DNA of 6,021 nucleotides from a virus. Below, in pieces: positions 1-6,021 of the stretch. The notes beneath the pieces are model-generated. The model saw nothing but the letters and a program-made list of their open reading frames with translations. It did not search any database and was not told the DNA's origin. Position 1 is the stretch's first letter. Each line of letters starts with the position of its first letter. The translations under genes and the position numbers were made by a program. The stretch lies in IMG/VR virus record IMGVR_UViG_3300031922_000088, positions 1 to 6,021 of that record; one strand, 5' to 3'.

Positions 1-55
1 AGGCCCGCACGGGACTTTTCCGCGCTCGAGCCGCAGGACAAGCGGCGCGGCCGCC
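1..55. repeat. Terminal direct repeat, copy 1 (circular-contig overlap)
   Basis: aggcccgcacgggacttttccgcgctcgagccgcaggacaagcggcgcggccgcc is identical to 5967-6021. Confidence 0.95.
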
Positions 56-1571: not shown

Positions 1572-1805
1572 ATGAACGTTCTCGCTCGTTTCAAGGCGAC
1601 CATGGCCGCTTTCGTGGCCATGGTCTTCGCCATGGTCGTCGGTTCCAGCACTGCTTTTGCCCAGGCTCTTGATCTGGCTGCTACGCAGGCTCAGGTGTTG
1701 GGCTACGTCGGTGCCACGATTACCTTCATCGTCGCCGTTGGTCTGGCTGTGCTGGGACTGGTCATGATCGCCAAAGCGATCAGGTGGGCCCGTCGCGCTG
1801 GTTGA
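1572..1805 (+). CDS. Major coat protein precursor, g8p-like
   Basis: AGGAG at 1561-1565 lies 6 nt before the ATG. The 77-aa product has a signal peptide ending AFA. The mature ~47-aa peptide has an acidic/polar N-terminus (QALDLAATQAQ), a hydrophobic core (ITFIVAVGLAVLGLVMI) and a basic C-terminus (KAIRWARRAG). Confidence 0.9.
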   Translation: MNVLARFKATMAAFVAMVFAMVVGSSTAFAQALDLAATQAQVLGYVGATITFIVAVGLAVLGLVMIAKAIRWARRAG

Positions 1806-1814
1806 TTCAAACTC

Positions 1815-1840
1815 GGTCGCGTCCTGGCGCGACCTTTCTC
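1815..1840 (+). terminator. Candidate rho-independent terminator/attenuator downstream of the major coat gene
   Basis: ggtcgcg (1815-1821) pairs with cgcgacc (1828-1834) across a 6-nt loop and is followed by tttctc. It begins 10 nt after the coat stop codon, the same position as the strong terminator after gene VIII in Ff phages. Confidence 0.55.
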
Positions 1841-1864
1841 AACATCGGGGGCTACGGTGATCGG

Positions 1865-3076
1865 ATGGATCGTTTTTATCATCATGTGCTGTGCGGCTTG
1901 GCTGTTGTTTTCGGACTGACAGTATCCGATTTGTTGAAAGCCACGAATATTCATCATCCGGATATTGGGCTTGCCCGGGCTGCATGCCATGCCGATCTAG
2001 CAGCTGCATCTGGCCGTTCACAACTCGATTGGAAAACTAACCCAACTCGCCAAGTTACATATGTCAGTTCGGCGGGACCACCGCCTTTTGATTGTGCTAC
2101 TCGCCGTTTTCATACACCCATCAATCTACACGGCTACACTTGCGGTGTTGTATGGACCAACACAGAAACAGGTTCTACAACAAATACTCGGTCTTGCATT
2201 AATGCAAACGCCGTTCTCAATAACAGCACTGAAATACATTTAGGTTCTCTCTCCTGCGTAACACGGCAACAAGAACAGTTTTCATGGCAAAATGGCAATC
2301 CCAATAATGTCAACATCTGTTTAGGAGGCTGTGAATATCAAGTCTCTGTTGATATGTGTGGTAGGAATTCAGACACCGAGCTATGGCAATGTACTGGTAC
2401 CGGTACACCTACAGGCCCAACTTGTTTAACGTTAGGTCAAAATCTACAGAATCCAACACCATTGCCTCCTTCTGACCCAACACAACCACCTGTTGACCCA
2501 ACACCACCTCCTGGCGATCCAACACCACCACCACCCGGATCAGGCGGAGGCGGCACCGCACCACCTGATGACGGTATCGATGACGGAGTTCAAGTTGTCC
2601 AAGGTCTTGGACCGCATTTGACAGCTATTGAACAAGCTGTATTAGGTCTAGGTCCTCGCATAGGTGCAGTGCAATCCGGCCTGACAGCCGCTATCAATCA
2701 TGGCACCAACGAGGCTAGGCCAAACGCAGGTCGCATAATCGTCGAGCTTGAAGCAATTCGTAACGCTATCGAGCATCCTAGCCAAGGAGGCCTTCTTCCT
2801 GGCGATGATGGCGGCGCATTGCCAACACGCGATGACATTATCGAGCGTGGCACCGCTGAGGAAATGATCAGCCGATTAGATACAGACGGCTTTGGCATGA
2901 CGAGAGGGTGTCCGGCAATGTCATGGCGTCAGACTTTCGATCTTGGTTGGGCTACTTTTCACATGGCCCAAGTGTCCACTATTATTTGTTGGGCGATAGG
3001 TTTGTTTGGGTGGATGATTGCACTTGCTGGATTCATCCAAGCATCTTACATCCTATCGAGGATCGGAGTACGGTAA
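1865..3076 (+). CDS. Adsorption / minor coat protein, g3p-like
   Basis: Start chosen at ATG 1865 (MDRFYHHVLCGLAVVFGLTVS, signal-like). The 403-aa product has a Cys-rich N-terminal region (10 Cys after the leader) and a Pro/Thr-rich then Gly-rich linker (DPTQPPVDPTPPPGDPTPPPPGSGGGG). It also has a C-terminal domain ending in a hydrophobic anchor (IICWAIGLFGWMIALAGFIQASYIL). This is the architecture and gene position of Ff g3p. Confidence 0.8.
   Translation: MDRFYHHVLCGLAVVFGLTVSDLLKATNIHHPDIGLARAACHADLAAASGRSQLDWKTNPTRQVTYVSSAGPPPFDCATRRFHTPINLHGYTCGVVWTNTETGSTTNTRSCINANAVLNNSTEIHLGSLSCVTRQQEQFSWQNGNPNNVNICLGGCEYQVSVDMCGRNSDTELWQCTGTGTPTGPTCLTLGQNLQNPTPLPPSDPTQPPVDPTPPPGDPTPPPPGSGGGGTAPPDDGIDDGVQVVQGLGPHLTAIEQAVLGLGPRIGAVQSGLTAAINHGTNEARPNAGRIIVELEAIRNAIEHPSQGGLLPGDDGGALPTRDDIIERGTAEEMISRLDTDGFGMTRGCPAMSWRQTFDLGWATFHMAQVSTIICWAIGLFGWMIALAGFIQASYILSRIGVR
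2474..2539 (+). repeat. Three imperfect tandem ~21-nt repeats encoding the DPTxPPx linker of the g3p-like protein
   Basis: gacccaacacaaccacctgtt / gacccaacaccacctcctggc / gatccaacaccaccaccacccgga, head to tail. Confidence 0.8.
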
Positions 3077-3372
3077 TGGGCGCATTACTTGCAGCATTTG
3101 TACCTTTCTTCATGGCTGCACTACGCTTATTCGTTCTTGCCAACATCGTCGGATTTGTAGTCCGTATTTTTGTCGGCCTCGGTGTTTATTTCTTGGTTAT
3201 GGAACCGCTTGGCGACGTTATATCTGACATGCTTAGCAATCGATTTCTCGGCCTTCCACCTGAAGTTGCTGGCTGGGTTGGTTTTATGAATGTCGATGTT
3301 TACGTTCAAGCAATCCTGAGTGCCTATGCAGTTGTTTGGGCATCGAATTTCGTTCTTCGGATGCGTCCATAA
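3076..3372 (+). CDS. Minor coat protein, g6p-like (hydrophobic; possibly DUF2523 family)
   Basis: ATG 3076 overlaps the g3 stop (TAATG), with GGAG 7 nt upstream. The 98-aa product is very hydrophobic, with 2-3 predicted helices. It lies between the g3-like and g1-like genes, as in other inoviruses. Confidence 0.7.
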   Translation: MGALLAAFVPFFMAALRLFVLANIVGFVVRIFVGLGVYFLVMEPLGDVISDMLSNRFLGLPPEVAGWVGFMNVDVYVQAILSAYAVVWASNFVLRMRP

Positions 3373-4559
3373 TGCCGATCAAGCTAGTTACCGGCACACC
3401 AGGAGCCGGCAAGACCCTTACTGCCCTGCAGGACGCATTGACGCAAGTTGGTGTTGATTTTGGCCTCTCCGATCCACTGGCAGAATGGGACCGTGGCACC
3501 ATACCCACACGCCCCGTTTATTTCTGCAACATTCGTGGCCTCGATCCTCGGCTACCCACGATTGAAACGCCATGGGATTGGGAGTCCTGTCCTGACGGAT
3601 CGCTGATCGTTGTTGACGAGGCGTGGGAGTTTTTCGGCAAGCAGTTGCGGAACGCGGACGATCCCCGCGTGCTCAACCTGGCCAAGCACCGCCATCGCGG
3701 CTTCGATTTCATCTGGACGAGCCAAGCGCCCTCGCAGTTGATTTCTGCGGTTCGTGACCTGGTAGGCTCGCATGTTCACGTAACAAGGAAGTTTGGCACC
3801 GAGACCACCATCCGCTATGAATGGCCGCATGTGCAGGAGTCACCCAACGGGCAGACTGCGAAGGCGCAGGCGATAGAACAGGTCTGGCGTTATCCGCCCA
3901 AACTGTTCCCGATCTACGAATCGGCGACCCTCCACACTGTCAAGCGCAAAATTCCCGCCAAGATCATCGCTGCCCTGGTACTGGCTGGATTTGTCCCTGT
4001 TCTCCTTGCTGTGTCCGGCTGGGCGCTCTACCAGGGCTTCGGCACGGCTGGCGTCGATCTGCCCTCACTCACTACCGAGACTGCCATCGCAGCTCAACCG
4101 GAAGGCGCGGCGCGCAGCGTAGCGAGCACCGCGCCGAGGGCCGGCACCAACAACGACGCACCGCAGACGGTCGAGGAGTTCATCATTGAACGAACTCCGC
4201 GCATCGATTGGGACCCTGCATCAGCACCCATCTATGATCGCTTCGAGGTCCAGGACTACCCGCGCATGTTCTGCATGATCTCGGGTGATCAGCGTATCGA
4301 GCGTGTGAGTTGTCGATGCCGAACTCAACAGATGACACCTATCCACGTGGACGACACCATCTGCATGCATATTGCTCTGAACGGCCGATGGGACCCGCGA
4401 CTTCCACCGATCGGGCACACGCCGAGGGAGGCCGACCGGACCCAGCTCCCGCCGATCGGCGAACAGTCGGCTATGCCATCAGCACCCATCGGCTTGGGTG
4501 GCTTTGACCGCTCGATCAGGCTTCCGCACGTTACGCCGGACGAAACCTCCCTTCGTTGA
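3372..4559 (+). CDS. Assembly NTPase, Zot / g1p-like
   Basis: ATG 3372 overlaps the previous stop (TAATG). Walker A GTPGAGKT lies at residues 8-15 and Walker B LIVVDEAW follows. A central TM helix (IIAALVLAGFVPVLLAVSGWAL) precedes a ~170-aa Cys-containing C-terminal domain. This is the typical Zot family (PF05707) layout. Confidence 0.9.
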   Translation: MPIKLVTGTPGAGKTLTALQDALTQVGVDFGLSDPLAEWDRGTIPTRPVYFCNIRGLDPRLPTIETPWDWESCPDGSLIVVDEAWEFFGKQLRNADDPRVLNLAKHRHRGFDFIWTSQAPSQLISAVRDLVGSHVHVTRKFGTETTIRYEWPHVQESPNGQTAKAQAIEQVWRYPPKLFPIYESATLHTVKRKIPAKIIAALVLAGFVPVLLAVSGWALYQGFGTAGVDLPSLTTETAIAAQPEGAARSVASTAPRAGTNNDAPQTVEEFIIERTPRIDWDPASAPIYDRFEVQDYPRMFCMISGDQRIERVSCRCRTQQMTPIHVDDTICMHIALNGRWDPRLPPIGHTPREADRTQLPPIGEQSAMPSAPIGLGGFDRSIRLPHVTPDETSLR

Positions 4560-4591
4560 TCCTGAATGGTCATTAACTCAAATTCTATACC

Positions 4592-4656
4592 CTATTGACA
4601 CGTAGCAACGGCGCGGCTCTCCGGGATTGTCAATAGTTTTTGCAACATTTGACAAT
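4592..4656. repeat. Three TTGACA-containing repeats forming two mutually exclusive inverted repeats in the AT-rich intergenic island
   Basis: A is ctattgaca (4592-4600), B is attgtcaatag (4626-4636) and C is ttgacaat (4649-4656). A pairs with B over 9 bp with a 27-nt loop, followed by ttttt at 4637-4641. B pairs with C over 8 bp with a 15-nt spacer. A CAATTG palindrome lies at 4653-4658. Confidence 0.6.
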
Positions 4657-4860
4657 TGATTGTTTTGATCGACCTCCGCCGTTATTTTTTTGGCGTGCCA
4701 CGGCCCAGCATCGCAGCCAAGGTCAGCACGCCACCGCGGGCCACATTGCGCCCCGCCAAACCGAGCAACAGGACACCCCAGCCCATCCCCGCACGGCCGC
4801 GCCCGGACCGCGCCAGCGGCCCGACGGGGCCCCCACGTAGTGGGGCAGGGAGGGCGACGC

Positions 4861-5127
4861 CTATGGCGTCGTCCAGCGGTTGTAGCGGGCCCGGAACGGC
4901 AGGATATTAGCTTCCTGCTTCCGCTTGCCCAGCTCGTCGAGCTGCATCACCGCCAGGACACGTTGCAGGCGAATCCTCCGCCGATCGGGTGCCACGAGTT
5001 CATCGCCGGCGATCCGCCAGCCGGCCCAATCGCCGAACAGCGGACCATTGCCGTAGACCAGCCAGTCATGCTGCCTACGCAGGCAGTCCGTGATGCCAAG
5101 TTTCTCGAAGCAGGGCGGTCTTTCCAT
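4861..5127 (-). CDS. Small protein, DUF3653-like; candidate XafT-type Xer recombination activation factor
   Basis: This 88-aa ORF has strong third-position GC bias typical of real genes in this genome. The segment GDWAGWRIAGDELVAPDRRRI matches my recollection of the DUF3653 core (W.GWR..G..L..P.G..I). It starts 85 nt from the dif-like attP. Only a weak RBS (GGA) is present, and its start overlaps the upstream ORF by 53 nt. Confidence 0.5.
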   Translation of the reverse strand: MERPPCFEKLGITDCLRRQHDWLVYGNGPLFGDWAGWRIAGDELVAPDRRRIRLQRVLAVMQLDELGKRKQEANILPFRARYNRWTTP

Positions 5128-5599
5128 CGGTCATTCCGTTTGAGGGGTTGCCCGGAATGCCGAAAGCCTCGTGCAAGAGCTGTTGCAGTCGTTTCAGCAG
5201 CACCGCCACAGTTCGCATAATGTATAGTCCTTCCTTCGTTGCCTGGTAGCCGCTGTCATGCGCTACCGCAGGGGCTGGGAAGCTACTCGACACCAGCACT
5301 GCCACTGCCATCAGTGCCAGCGCCTGCACTTTTTTTGCGAGACGTTGGAACGTCCGTCGTGAGCTCGCATCCGCGTTCGTTGCCTCTGCCATTGACTCGA
5401 ACAGCAGCACCGCGATCTCTTGGTCAGTCTTGCCCAGGTCGCGGGCCATGCGTTCGATCACGGCCGCATGCGCGTCCTTCCCGTTTCGCCAGTGCCCGGG
5501 GTTGCCGTTGGAGAGGCCGAGCGCCATACAGGCCTTTCGGTCACTTGTCAAGCCTTTGACAACCTTCCATTTCTCGAAAAGTTCGGCGGTTACTGGCAT
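5075..5599 (-). CDS. HTH DNA-binding regulator, phage repressor-like, with a predicted transmembrane segment
   Basis: Start chosen at ATG 5599 (GAGGG 8 nt upstream), giving 174 aa. LTSDRKACMALGLSNGNPGHWRNG resembles a Cro/CI-type helix-turn-helix. It is divergent from the replication/structural operon. A hydrophobic stretch VQALALMAVAVLVSSSFPAPAVA (residues ~91-113) follows a basic patch. Confidence 0.6.
   Translation of the reverse strand: MPVTAELFEKWKVVKGLTSDRKACMALGLSNGNPGHWRNGKDAHAAVIERMARDLGKTDQEIAVLLFESMAEATNADASSRRTFQRLAKKVQALALMAVAVLVSSSFPAPAVAHDSGYQATKEGLYIMRTVAVLLKRLQQLLHEAFGIPGNPSNGMTDGKTALLRETWHHGLPA
5210..5237 (+). other. dif-like attP for XerC/XerD-mediated integration (XerC arm + central region conserved, XerD arm degenerate)
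   Basis: AGTTCGCATAA-TGTATA-GTCCTTCCTTC was compared with E. coli dif GGTGCGCATAA-TGTATA-TTATGTTAAAT. The XerC arm matches 9/11, the central region 6/6 and the XerD arm 2/11. The 15-mer TTCGCATAATGTATA (5212-5226) is the reverse complement of the TATACATTATGCGAA core that I recall being reported for Xanthomonas filamentous phage attP/dif. Confidence 0.75.
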
Positions 5600-5665
5600 G
5601 TGCAAACCCTCTTGACTTGGTGAGCAAAGGCATTGTACGGTCCTGCTCGTGCAACCTGCTTGCAC
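5600..5665. promoter_or_regulatory. Divergent switch region: candidate operators and overlapping face-to-face promoters
   Basis: A perfect palindrome GTGCAA-cctgc-TTGCAC lies at 5649-5665. A related site GTGCAA-accctc-TTGACT at 5600-5617 abuts the repressor start codon. The leftward -10 TACAAT is the reverse complement of 5632-5637. The rightward candidate is TTGACT (5612-5617), an 18-nt spacer, then TACGGT (5636-5641). Confidence 0.4.
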
Positions 5666-5751
5666 ACCGGGGGCCAGGCTCCCGCACGCCGTCAGCGGCC
5701 TCTGCGGGTGCCCCGGTTTCCCCCGGCCCACCTCTCACCTGGAGAGCACGC

Positions 5752-5967
5752 ATGACCCGTACTCAGTGGATCCTCGACTACCGCCGCGCCCGGCTGGTCG
5801 CTCGCTTTGAAGATCGATTTGCCAGCGCTCTACCTAGCGCCTTGCTCTCGGTCGGCACCTACTCCTGCTCCCAAGCCGCCTACGCGGCGGCCCTTCGCTA
5901 CAAGTGGGACGCGCTGTCTCTGCCCTTGCTCAAGGGGTGTCCTCGCGTCTCTGGTGCCCGCTCATGA
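5752..5967 (+). CDS. Hypothetical 71-aa protein, first gene of the rightward operon
   Basis: GGAGAG at 5741-5746 lies 5 nt before ATG 5752. Third-position GC is high. The stop overlaps a possible rep ATG (ATGA). I recognise no motif. Confidence 0.5.
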   Translation: MTRTQWILDYRRARLVARFEDRFASALPSALLSVGTYSCSQAAYAAALRYKWDALSLPLLKGCPRVSGARS

Positions 5968-6021
5968 GGCCCGCACGGGACTTTTCCGCGCTCGAGCCGC
6001 AGGACAAGCGGCGCGGCCGCC
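5964..6021 (+). CDS. Possible true 5' end of the rep gene (continues through 1-114 into the 115..1083 ORF once the genome is circularised)
   Basis: ATG at 5964-5966 overlaps the TGA stop of the 71-aa ORF (ATGA), the same coupling motif as the rep/ssb junction at 1080-1083. The frame of the 115 ORF has no stop between position 1 and 115. Third-position GC is high, about 30 of 39 codons by hand count. Confidence 0.35.
   Translation, partial: MRPARDFSALEPQDKRRGR
5967..6021. repeat. Terminal direct repeat, copy 2 (circular-contig overlap)
   Basis: Exact 55/55 identity to 1-55. The window ends exactly at the end of the repeat. Confidence 0.95.

What the first reader, a model, noticed from the sequence alone, without database searches (positions are those of the whole stretch)
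5075..5599. The attP core sits inside the repressor-like ORF, so integration would rewrite its C-terminus and detach the downstream gene
The 15-nt core is read on the minus strand as L125-Y-I-M-R-T130 of the 174-aa repressor-like ORF. Recombination with chromosomal dif would place residues 1 to ~129 at one prophage end, fused to host-derived codons. The last ~45 codons and the XafT-like gene would move to the opposite end, about 6 kb away from the repressor promoter. The episomal and integrated forms would therefore encode different repressor C-termini. The putative Xer activator would lose its presumed upstream promoter after integration. That could act as a built-in switch limiting re-excision or further tandem integration.
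Basis: inference. Interest (0 to 1): 0.65.

Follow-up and report, generated by a model that had tools for sequence, protein, structure and literature searches.

The report
Phage attachment site inside its regulator gene
This small circular filamentous phage carries its chromosome-attachment site inside the end of its regulator gene, so integration cuts that gene and moves the next gene to the far end of the prophage; this layout was already described for the Xanthomonas phage XacF1, so it is a new example and not a new phenomenon.

Summary
The 15-nt dif core (5212-5226) is read as L125-T130 of the 174-aa minus-strand ORF, and it is the only dif-like site in the window.

The structural predictions are confirmed by integrated relatives in at least five host contexts. 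The regulator ORF keeps its sequence through ...IMRT and then continues into host DNA, giving 128-181 aa. The last ~45 codons and the 88-aa DUF3653 gene sit at the opposite prophage end, next to a rebuilt host dif.

The layout is not new. The same architecture occurs in Cf1c, phiLf-UK and phiSMA9, and it was published for XacF1 in 2014 and 2017.

New here:
- The tail after the core is under little or no protein-level selection (dN/dS 0.79, against 0.21 for residues 1-124).
- The last 17 codons are dictated by the overlapping DUF3653 frame.
- Relatives read the core in all three frames.

C-terminal rewriting is therefore probably neutral. Separation of the DUF3653 gene from its upstream gene is real, but its regulatory effect is untested. 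The "Xer activator" label is contested: phiLf-UK's DUF3653 protein PSB15 is a packaging factor that integration does not need. Tandem copies and integration/excision equilibrium in relatives argue against a strict lock.

Verdict: new member of a known kind, modest interest.

The parts
5210..5237 (-). 28-nt attP: XerC arm (5210-5220), central region TGTATA (5221-5226) and a degenerate XerD-side arm GTCCTTCCTTC (5227-5237). The 15-nt core named in the finding is 5212-5226.
   Evidence: Exact match and the only site within 3 mismatches. Relatives carry the same XerC arm and central region at both prophage ends, with a host XerD arm (..ACATAA) only at the end next to the 88-aa gene.
5228..5599 (-). 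Body of the regulator ORF, residues 1-124: an XRE-type helix-turn-helix domain (about 1-72) followed by a conserved hydrophobic helix (about 90-107). This part stays intact, with its upstream control region, at one prophage end.
   Evidence: dN/dS 0.21. phrog_638 'transcriptional regulator' E 3.9e-12. hhalign probability 97.9% to the phiLf-UK/Cf1c/phiSMA9 HTH proteins. AF2 pLDDT 83-94 for residues 1-70. Foldseek matches to XRE-family HTH proteins at probability 0.9-0.99.
5075..5209 (-). Tail of the regulator ORF, residues 131-174. Integration detaches it. Residues 158-174 overlap the start of the 88-aa ORF.
   Evidence: dN/dS 0.79 (0.55-1.15) for residues 131-157. In the overlap dN/dS is 53 in the regulator frame and 0.11 in the 88-aa frame. 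AF2 pLDDT is below 50 for 147-174. Relatives diverge exactly here in their integrated forms.
4861..5127 (-). 88-aa stand-alone DUF3653 gene, the counterpart of phiLf-UK PSB15/ORF9, Cf1cp7 and XacF1 ORF11, and XafT-like by domain. It starts 82 nt after the end of the XerC arm (84 nt after the 15-nt core). Integration moves it to the opposite prophage end.
   Evidence: Pfam DUF3653 E 6.6e-4. 15 of 16 members of the family alignment match DUF3653. 15 homologues at 41-83% identity, the 11 closest of them 83-89 aa. hhalign to the PSB15 family E 3.3e-5 over the L-x-G-x-W-x-G-W/F motif. It sits at the far end of prophages L001, L003, L014 and L016.
5127..5163 (-). Candidate RNA hairpin whose 3' arm covers the GGAA/GGAG ribosome-binding site and the first base of the 88-aa start codon. 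It lies inside the translated tail of the regulator ORF.
   Evidence: It is part of the window's minimum-free-energy fold, but z is only -1.56. Across 10 relatives 84% of cells pair, against 29-48% in slid controls, with one compensatory pair. This is weak evidence and a lead only.
5600..5751 (.). Divergent control region between the regulator gene (minus) and the 71-aa ORF and Rep (plus). It contains GTGCAA/TTGCAC repeats that look like operators.
   Evidence: GTGCAA at 5600-5605 and 5649-5654 (+) and at 5660-5665 (-), the last two forming an inverted repeat. No consensus sigma-70 promoter was detected.
1..55 (.). Terminal direct repeat, identical to 5967-6021. It shows that the window is a circular (replicative-form) genome and not a prophage.

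Best explanation
The window is the circular replicative form of a dif-integrating filamentous phage. It has the same module plan as Xanthomonas phages Cf1c/XacF1 and phiLf and Stenotrophomonas phage phiSMA9.

Its single double-stranded attP has a perfect XerC arm and central region and a degenerate XerD arm, as in TLC-phi. The site lies in the 3' part of an HTH regulator ORF, just after the protein's conserved body. The start of a stand-alone DUF3653 gene lies 82 nt beyond the XerC arm.

Shown from integrated relatives: host XerCD recombination with dif leaves regulator residues 1-130 at one prophage end, followed by whatever the host DNA encodes. The tail and the DUF3653 gene go to the other end, beside a rebuilt functional dif.

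Inferred from substitution patterns: the tail is a read-through with little or no constraint on its own sequence. The regulator therefore probably works equally well with a host-coded tail.

Inferred and not tested: the real consequence of integration is that it splits a two-gene unit. In the free form the DUF3653 gene is read directly behind the regulator ORF, with no terminator or recognisable promoter between them, a conserved ORF overlap, and possibly a hairpin over its ribosome-binding site. In a single prophage the gene depends on host read-through or on a weak promoter of its own. Free circles and tandem arrays restore the unit. I put this regulatory step at about 0.35. I leave open whether the DUF3653 protein acts on XerD, on packaging, or on both.
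For: Anatomy.

Integrated relatives:
- Alignment A1 diverges exactly after FIMRT/IHYAN.
- A complete prophage in a 561-kb Silanimonas contig has the 88-aa gene at 4072-4338 and the regulator at 10001-10546.
- Further host junctions appear.
- Both att sites were read in L001, L003, L014 and L016.
- Joining the prophage ends at the core restores ORFs of 165-177 aa.

Same layout in known phages:
- phiLf-UK has the annotated XerC/D core 5393-5407 inside ORF10 (5299-5844), followed by ORF9/PSB15.
- Cf1c reads the core as LYIMRS and phiSMA9 as IHYAK.
- Three IMG/VR relatives place the core at codons 115-118 of ORFs of 156-163 aa.
- Homology: hhalign 97.9% for the HTH proteins; DUF3653 in 15 of 16 members of the 88-aa family.
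- Published for XacF1: PMC4076744 and PMC5666396.

Selection: dN/dS is 0.21 for the body and 0.79 for the tail, and the overlap is governed by the 88-aa frame. The core is read in three frames across relatives.

Coupling: the HTH ORF overlaps the DUF3653 ORF by 4, 4 and 11 nt in known phages and by 41-62 nt in this lineage. No terminator or consensus promoter lies between them. A GGAG site is conserved, and there is a candidate hairpin.
Against: - No integrated copy of this particular phage exists in the databases searched. The closest relative of its regulator is 67% identical, so its own prophage junction is inferred from relatives.
- The DUF3653 gene has its own conserved ribosome-binding site. 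The promoter scan found nothing even for the regulator gene, so the absence of a promoter call is weak evidence.
- In L001 a host gene on the same strand ends about 27 nt before dif and could supply read-through. In L003 the neighbouring host gene points the other way.
- ORF openness of the tail is uninformative: an unselected frame is open in 9 of 10 relatives.
- The hairpin has only one compensatory pair, and the window's fold z-score is -1.56.
Confidence: 0.8

Rival explanations
1. The free and integrated forms make functionally different repressors because the C-terminus differs. The DUF3653 protein is a XerD activator that loses its promoter on integration, which locks the prophage in and limits further tandem integration.
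For: The geometry is real. The attP is TLC-like, with a degenerate XerD arm and a DUF3653 gene beside the XerC arm, the side on which xafT lies in TLC-phi (PMC6744903). Deleting the 5' part of XacF1 ORF12 made the prophage unstable (PMC5666396). The position of attP between the two genes is conserved across distant lineages.
Against: The tail shows no clear protein-level constraint and is predicted to be disordered or low-confidence. Loss of phiLf-UK PSB15 left integration unchanged (bioRxiv 10.1101/2024.03.19.585677). XacF1 lysogens keep an integration/excision equilibrium (PMC5666396). Tandem or multiple copies at dif are seen (PMC6744903).
Confidence: 0.2
2. A neutral by-product of a compact genome. 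attP simply sits in the short spacer between two genes. The upstream ORF happens to run through it because G+C-rich DNA has few stop codons. The DUF3653 gene has its own expression signals, so integration changes nothing important.
For: Tail dN/dS is about 0.8 and the core is read in all three frames. Unselected frames are open in 5 and 9 of 10 relatives. The 88-aa ORF has its own conserved GGAG site. The dif core itself offers a weak -10-like CATTAT that would travel with the gene.
Against: In every lineage examined the HTH ORF ends at or beyond the DUF3653 start. In L016 and L024 compensating indels on both sides of the core keep the tail in the same frame relative to the 88-aa ORF. This looks maintained and not accidental. 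The attP position relative to the two genes is conserved between families that no longer share detectable DNA similarity.
Confidence: 0.35
3. The 88-aa protein is a PSB15-like packaging-signal-binding assembly factor, and not a Xer activator. Splitting it from the regulator gene on integration would silence virion assembly in single-copy prophages and restore it after excision or in tandem arrays.
For: It has the same gene position, strand and stand-alone DUF3653 architecture as PSB15. The L-x-G-x-W-x-G-(W/F) and P-(D/E) motifs are shared. PSB15's function was shown experimentally in phiLf-UK (bioRxiv 10.1101/2024.03.19.585677).
Against: The profile match to the PSB15 family is short (30 columns, probability 72%). 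The window's family carries a 28-aa N-terminal extension with conserved cysteines and lacks PSB15's long basic C-terminal tail. The PSB15 result comes from a preprint on one phage. A degenerate XerD arm still calls for some XerD activator.
Confidence: 0.3

Closest known systems
Xanthomonas phage XacF1 / Cf1c: ORF12 (Cf1cp8, 18-kDa regulator) containing attP, followed by ORF11 (Cf1cp7, DUF3653)
   Same: The same 15-nt core TATACATTATGCGAA lies inside the 3' part of an HTH regulator ORF, read as LYIMR in both. The protein has the same plan of an HTH domain followed by a hydrophobic helix. A DUF3653 ORF overlaps the stop codon. Integration is at dif, and splitting of the ORF on integration is stated in print (PMC4076744, PMC5666396).
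   Different: No detectable DNA similarity, and tblastn does not find the Cf1c protein. The ORF overlap is 53 nt, not 4 nt. The DUF3653 protein is shorter (88 aa against 127 aa) and has a different N-terminus. The relatives' hosts are Silanimonas-like, not Xanthomonas.
Xanthomonas phage phiLf-UK: ORF10 (HTH XRE) with the annotated XerC/D core, and ORF9 = PSB15
   Same: Same gene order and strand. The core is inside the HTH ORF, and the XerD-side arm is degenerate.
   Different: The core is read in another frame (IHYAN). PSB15 has its DUF3653 domain at the extreme N-terminus and a basic membrane-binding tail. PSB15 was shown to act in packaging and not in integration (bioRxiv 10.1101/2024.03.19.585677).
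Vibrio cholerae satellite phage TLC-phi (attP plus XafT)
   Same: Double-stranded attP whose XerC arm and central region match dif, with a degenerate XerD arm. A DUF3653 protein is encoded beside the XerC arm. Integration rebuilds a functional dif (PMC6744903).
   Different: XafT is a single HTH-DUF3653 fusion, and attP is not inside it. Here the HTH and DUF3653 parts are separate ORFs with attP between them. XerD activation was not tested here.
Stenotrophomonas phage phiSMA9: ORF1 and ORF2
   Same: It is the only phage in the INPHARED collection that tblastn finds with the window's regulator (31% identity over residues 1-86). The core is inside ORF1 at codon 118, and ORF2 is a DUF3653 protein overlapping ORF1 by 4 nt.
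   Different: The core is read as IHYAK. Integration of phiSMA9 was not examined here.

Membership tests
TLC-type IMEX (integrative element using host XerCD, Xaf-assisted) | A single double-stranded attP whose XerC arm and central region match the host dif | tested here: met
   There is one dif-like site in the window. In relatives, attP, attL and attR share an identical central region and XerC arm. The window's own host dif is unknown, but its central region TGTATA and XerC arm equal the dif core that the XacF1 and phiLf papers report for Xanthomonas (PMC4076744; 10.1101/2023.12.30.573655).
TLC-type IMEX (integrative element using host XerCD, Xaf-assisted) | A degenerate XerD-binding arm in attP, with a functional dif rebuilt on integration | tested here: met
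   The window's arm GTCCTTCCTTC matches about 2 of 11 positions of TTATGTTAAAT (sequence). In prophages of relatives, the host arm TTATGT.. is found only at the end next to the DUF3653 gene.
TLC-type IMEX (integrative element using host XerCD, Xaf-assisted) | Encodes a DUF3653 (XafT-like) protein near the XerC arm | tested here: met
   The 88-aa ORF starts 82 nt from the XerC arm. DUF3653 E 6.6e-4, below Pfam's cut-off, but 15 of 16 members of the family alignment match.
TLC-type IMEX (integrative element using host XerCD, Xaf-assisted) | The DUF3653 protein binds XerD and triggers XerD-first strand exchange without FtsK | not testable with these tools
   This needs pull-down and in vitro recombination assays. 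Contrary evidence exists for the nearest studied stand-alone DUF3653 protein, PSB15 (10.1101/2024.03.19.585677).
Cf1c/XacF1/phiLf-type lysogeny module (HTH regulator ORF containing attP, followed by a DUF3653 ORF) | HTH regulator homologous to the Cf1cp8 / phiLf ORF10 / phiSMA9 ORF1 family | tested here: met
   hhalign probability 97.9%, E 3.6e-13 over residues 1-87. tblastn to phiSMA9 E 3e-7. phrog_638 E 3.9e-12.
Cf1c/XacF1/phiLf-type lysogeny module (HTH regulator ORF containing attP, followed by a DUF3653 ORF) | The dif core lies within the 3' part of the regulator ORF, downstream of the hydrophobic helix | tested here: met
   Codons 125-130 of 174 in the window. The relative position is the same in phiLf-UK, Cf1c, phiSMA9 and L004-L006.
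Cf1c/XacF1/phiLf-type lysogeny module (HTH regulator ORF containing attP, followed by a DUF3653 ORF) | The regulator ORF is split by integration at dif | tested here: met
   Seen directly in relatives of the window's lineage. Not observable for this phage itself, because no integrated copy was found.
CTX-type IMEX | Two inverted dif-like sites that fold into a hairpin attP on the single-stranded genome | tested here: not met
   Only one site is found within 3 mismatches, on either strand.
PSB15 family (packaging-signal-binding DUF3653 protein) | N-terminal DUF3653 hairpin with LTG / WAGFxF / TPE motifs, followed by helices and a basic membrane-binding tail | tested here: inconclusive
   The window protein has related motifs: LFG, WAGWRI and APD. 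hhalign covers only 30 columns at probability 72%. The domain follows a 28-aa extension, and the C-terminus is much shorter.

The most novel reading that the evidence does not exclude
The conserved placement of attP between the body of the HTH regulator and the DUF3653 gene acts as a sensor of integration state. In free circles and tandem arrays, ribosomes reading the otherwise unconstrained tail open a hairpin over the DUF3653 ribosome-binding site, and the gene is also transcribed from the regulator promoter. In a single prophage the gene is cut off from both. The cell would then make the DUF3653 protein (XerD activator, packaging checkpoint, or both) only when an intact attP junction exists. 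This would explain why the ORF is kept open through attP in all three reading frames although its amino-acid sequence is free to drift.
Probability: 0.25. Interest if true: 0.55.

Novelty: new member of a known kind. Interest (0 to 1): 0.3.

Why it matters
If integration does switch DUF3653 expression, that would be a simple recombination-based way for dif-integrating filamentous phages to tell free from integrated DNA. It would bear on prophage stability, on virion production from lysogens, and on the use of phages such as XacF1 for biocontrol.

As things stand, the window mainly extends a published architecture to an uncultured lineage whose integrated relatives lie in Silanimonas genomes. 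It also adds comparative evidence that the gene arrangement is what is conserved, and not the C-terminal peptide.

Tried and rejected
- DNA searches of the phage collection with the whole genome (megablast) and with 4560-5966 (blastn) found nothing.
- tblastn with the 88-aa protein against phages found nothing.
- The metagenome-contig scan found no confirmed relative.
- The genome scan gave only two Silanimonas assemblies, so the window's own host and prophage form remain unknown.
- ORF openness as evidence that the tail is coding was rejected: unselected frames are open in 5 and 9 of 10 relatives.
- Promoter and terminator scans gave no usable call between the core and the 88-aa start. A lenient scan found only a 7/12 match that uses the dif core as its -10.
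- RNAalifold on the core-to-start region gave no convincing conserved structure overall (-8.1 kcal/mol, covariation -0.19). Only the hairpin over the ribosome-binding site is kept, as a weak lead.
- A sequence search of the PDB with the 88-aa family profile found nothing.
- Pfam gives no family for the regulator itself.
- Reconstruction of L003 failed because the N-terminal part of its regulator is poorly matched and possibly degraded.
- Contig L007 was considered as proof of tandem integration. It could instead be an assembly path through two variants, so it is used only as supporting evidence.
Full report
**What is in the window**

The 6021-base window is a circular assembly of about 5966 bp; its first 55 bases repeat at the end. 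It encodes a standard inovirus set on the + strand:
- Rep_trans initiator, 115-1083
- ssDNA-binding protein, 1080-1364
- coat proteins
- a pIII-like protein, 1784-3076
- a pVI-like protein, 3076-3372
- Zot/pI, 3372-4559

Two genes lie on the minus strand: a 174-aa ORF (5599->5075) and an 88-aa ORF (5127->4861).

The sequence TTCGCATAATGTATA lies at 5212-5226. It is the reverse complement of TATACATTATGCGAA, the attP/dif core reported for Xanthomonas phages. It is the only such site within three mismatches, against 0.04 expected by chance. It is read as L125-Y-I-M-R-T130 of the 174-aa ORF.

Read as a 28-nt site, it has a good XerC arm (AGTTCGCATAA), the central region TGTATA, and a XerD-side arm (GTCCTTCCTTC) that bears no resemblance to a XerD site. 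This is the TLC-phi type of attP described in PMC6744903.

**What the two genes are**

The 174-aa protein has no Pfam family. Other evidence identifies its N-terminal part:
- It matches PHROG 638, "transcriptional regulator" (E 3.9e-12).
- Its family profile aligns with the 18-kDa HTH proteins of phiLf-UK, Cf1c and phiSMA9 (hhalign probability 97.9%, E 3.6e-13, residues 1-87).
- AlphaFold2 gives a confident five-helix N-terminal domain (pLDDT 83-94 to residue 70).
- The rest of the model is low-confidence: a long helix that includes a hydrophobic stretch, a helix at 120-146, and a disordered end.
- Foldseek places the N-terminal domain among XRE-type HTH proteins at probability 0.9-0.99, though the E-values are only about 0.04-0.5.

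The 88-aa protein has 15 database homologues at 41-83% identity; the 11 closest are 83-89 aa. 15 of the 16 proteins in the family alignment (window protein included) match DUF3653; the window protein itself is just below Pfam's cut-off.

Homologues of the 174-aa protein fall into two groups. Proteins of 170-178 aa on contigs of about 6 kb align end to end. Others are identical or similar up to ...FIMRT (or ...IHYAN) and then become unrelated.

The second group sits at prophage-host junctions:
- A 561-kb Silanimonas contig carries a complete prophage. The 88-aa gene is at one end (4072-4338), the regulator is at the other (10001-10546), and host genes lie on both sides.
- Further junctions occur next to four other sets of host genes.

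Both att sites could be read in four prophages:
- The site beside the 88-aa gene is host XerD arm (..ACATAA), central region, XerC arm, and then the phage tail.
- The site at the end of the regulator is the phage's degenerate arm, central region, XerC arm, and then host DNA.

Prophage-form regulator ORFs are 128-181 aa, each with a different host-coded end. Joining the two ends of three prophages at the core restores ORFs of 165, 170 and 177 aa, like the free forms. No integrated copy of this phage itself was found; the best non-self hit is 67% identical.

**The layout is already known**

- In phiLf-UK (MH206184) the annotated XerC/D core (5393-5407) lies inside ORF10, the HTH protein (5299-5844). 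ORF9, a DUF3653 protein, overlaps its end.
- Cf1c's Cf1cp8 reads the core as LYIMRS and is followed by Cf1cp7, a DUF3653 protein.
- phiSMA9 ORF1 reads the core as IHYAK and is followed by ORF2, a DUF3653 protein.
[quoted passage not shown] - In 2017 they showed that deleting the 5' part of ORF12 delays integration and destabilises the prophage, while wild-type lysogens reach an integration/excision equilibrium (PMC5666396).
- Midonet et al. found DUF3653 genes in all dif-integrated phages of Xanthomonadales (PMC6744903).

The window is thus a distant new member of this group. It shares no detectable DNA similarity with the deposited phages.

**Is the rewritten C-terminus meaningful?**

I built a codon alignment of ten distinct free or reconstructed genes and measured substitution patterns.
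- Residues 1-124 give dN/dS 0.21 (bootstrap 0.16-0.27), and the shifted control frames give values above 1. This part is a selected protein.
- Residues 131-157, between the core and the 88-aa start, give 0.79 (0.55-1.15), close to the shifted frames (0.88 and 1.06).
- In the overlap the regulator frame gives 53 and the 88-aa frame gives 0.11. The apparently conserved "GTSxLLR" end of the regulator is simply the shadow of the 88-aa protein's MERPPCFE start.

Across relatives the core is read in all three frames: LYIMR, IHYA(N/K) and Y(T/A)LC(E/A). The DNA site is therefore what is conserved, and not the peptide.

The same regulator body also occurs with different tail-plus-DUF3653 modules. L001 and the second copy on L007 are 96.6% identical upstream of the core and 79.4% identical downstream. 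This fits exchange at the core.

I conclude that the different C-termini are real but probably neutral.

**Is the downstream gene really uncoupled?**

Points consistent with one expression unit that integration cuts:
- In every lineage the HTH ORF runs through attP and ends at or after the DUF3653 start. The overlaps are 4, 4 and 11 nt in the known phages and 41-62 nt in this lineage.
- In L016 and L024, indels on both sides of the core compensate, so the tail keeps its frame.
- There is no terminator-like site and no consensus promoter between the core and the 88-aa start.
- A hairpin at 5163-5127 would cover the ribosome-binding site and the start codon. It pairs in 84% of cells across ten relatives, against 29-48% in slid controls. 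It has only one compensatory pair, and the window's fold z-score is -1.56.

Points against, or limits on the evidence:
- The 88-aa gene has its own conserved GGAG site.
- The promoter scan is blind in this G+C-rich phage; it finds nothing even for the regulator gene.
- ORF openness is not informative.
- Host context varies. A same-strand host gene abuts dif in L001, and an opposite-strand gene does so in L003.

I rate the regulatory consequence at about 0.35.

**What the DUF3653 protein does**

TLC-phi XafT (an HTH-DUF3653 fusion) activates XerD, and its gene lies on the XerC-arm side of attP (PMC6744903). The degenerate XerD arm here argues for a need of that kind.

However, the nearest studied stand-alone DUF3653 protein is phiLf-UK PSB15. 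It binds the packaging signal and the membrane, and its loss did not change integration (bioRxiv 10.1101/2024.03.19.585677). The window protein shares the core motifs (LFG, WAGWRI, APD). It differs at both ends, and the profile match is short. Both roles remain open.

**The proposed lock**

Published and local evidence speaks against a strict block on excision or tandem integration:
- XacF1 reaches an integration/excision equilibrium (PMC5666396).
- Multiple DUF3653 genes lie beside dif in X. oryzae (PMC6744903).
- Contig L007 carries two adjacent copies. This could instead be an assembly path through two variants.

**Verdict**

This is a new member of a known kind, of modest interest. One testable idea is worth keeping: integration splits a regulator-DUF3653 unit whose upstream ORF is maintained for its position and not for its sequence.

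Noticed in passing
L018 3046-3432 and L019 (proteins P0018, P0020, P0022, P0023): In a more distant subgroup the regulator ORF runs into ...CTGAATATTATGTAATATG. That is central region TGAATA followed by a XerD-type arm (TTATGTAATAT), and the ORF stops at a TAA inside the arm. The attP seems inverted relative to the gene, so the regulator end of the prophage abuts the host XerD side. A PGAP1-like host gene is the neighbour there, whereas in L001 a PGAP1-like gene lies at the opposite, DUF3653-gene end of the prophage.
   Followed up: partly
L007 (11,381-bp JGI contig), cores at 751 and 6683: Two adjacent phage copies are 100% identical over 4212 nt (tail, DUF3653 gene and structural genes). Their regulator bodies are only 82% identical and their small upstream ORFs differ. 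This is either a real tandem of two immunity types joined at the core or an assembly path through two variants.
   Followed up: partly
window 5600-5665: GTGCAA/TTGCAC repeats in the divergent control region: GTGCAA directly next to the regulator start codon (5600-5605) and an inverted pair GTGCAAcctgcTTGCAC (5649-5665). They look like operators. The hexamer count over the whole window is not above chance (7 against 4.5 expected).
   Followed up: partly
window 4580-4680: An A+T-rich intergenic stretch after Zot carries repeated and palindromic ATTGACA / TTGTCAAT / TTTGACAATTG motifs. The only promoter-like hits in the region are here, on both strands (4626-4656). It could be a bidirectional promoter, a terminator zone or a packaging/origin element.
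   Followed up: no
attP central regions: window 5221-5226; L001, L003, L007-L017; L004, L027: Relatives carry different central regions: TATACA in the window (as in the Xanthomonas and Stenotrophomonas phages), TATTCA in the Silanimonas-associated phages, and TATGCA in L004 and L027. Each phage appears to track the dif of its own host. This implies that the window's host is not the Silanimonas species that hold the prophages.
   Followed up: partly
window 5279-5330 (regulator residues about 90-107): A conserved hydrophobic helix (ALALMAVAVLVSSSF, preceded by KK) follows the HTH domain. It is also present in phiLf-UK ORF10, Cf1cp8 and phiSMA9 ORF1, with dN/dS about 0.27. The regulator may be anchored in the membrane, which would be unusual for a phage repressor.
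   Followed up: partly
window 5044-5127 (first 28 residues of the 88-aa protein): The DUF3653 domain is preceded by a conserved extension, MERPPCFExLGxTDCLRRQHDW. C15 is invariant and C6 nearly so. PSB15 lacks this extension, and it is unlike the HTH of XafT. PHROG 25084 matches residues 3-70 at positions 143-212 of a 250-position profile, which hints at longer fused relatives.
   Followed up: no
L003 8001-8277: The regulator in the second Silanimonas prophage matches only residues 1-92 and could not be rebuilt in frame. The 90-aa DUF3653 gene at the other end is intact. The regulator may be decaying.
   Followed up: no
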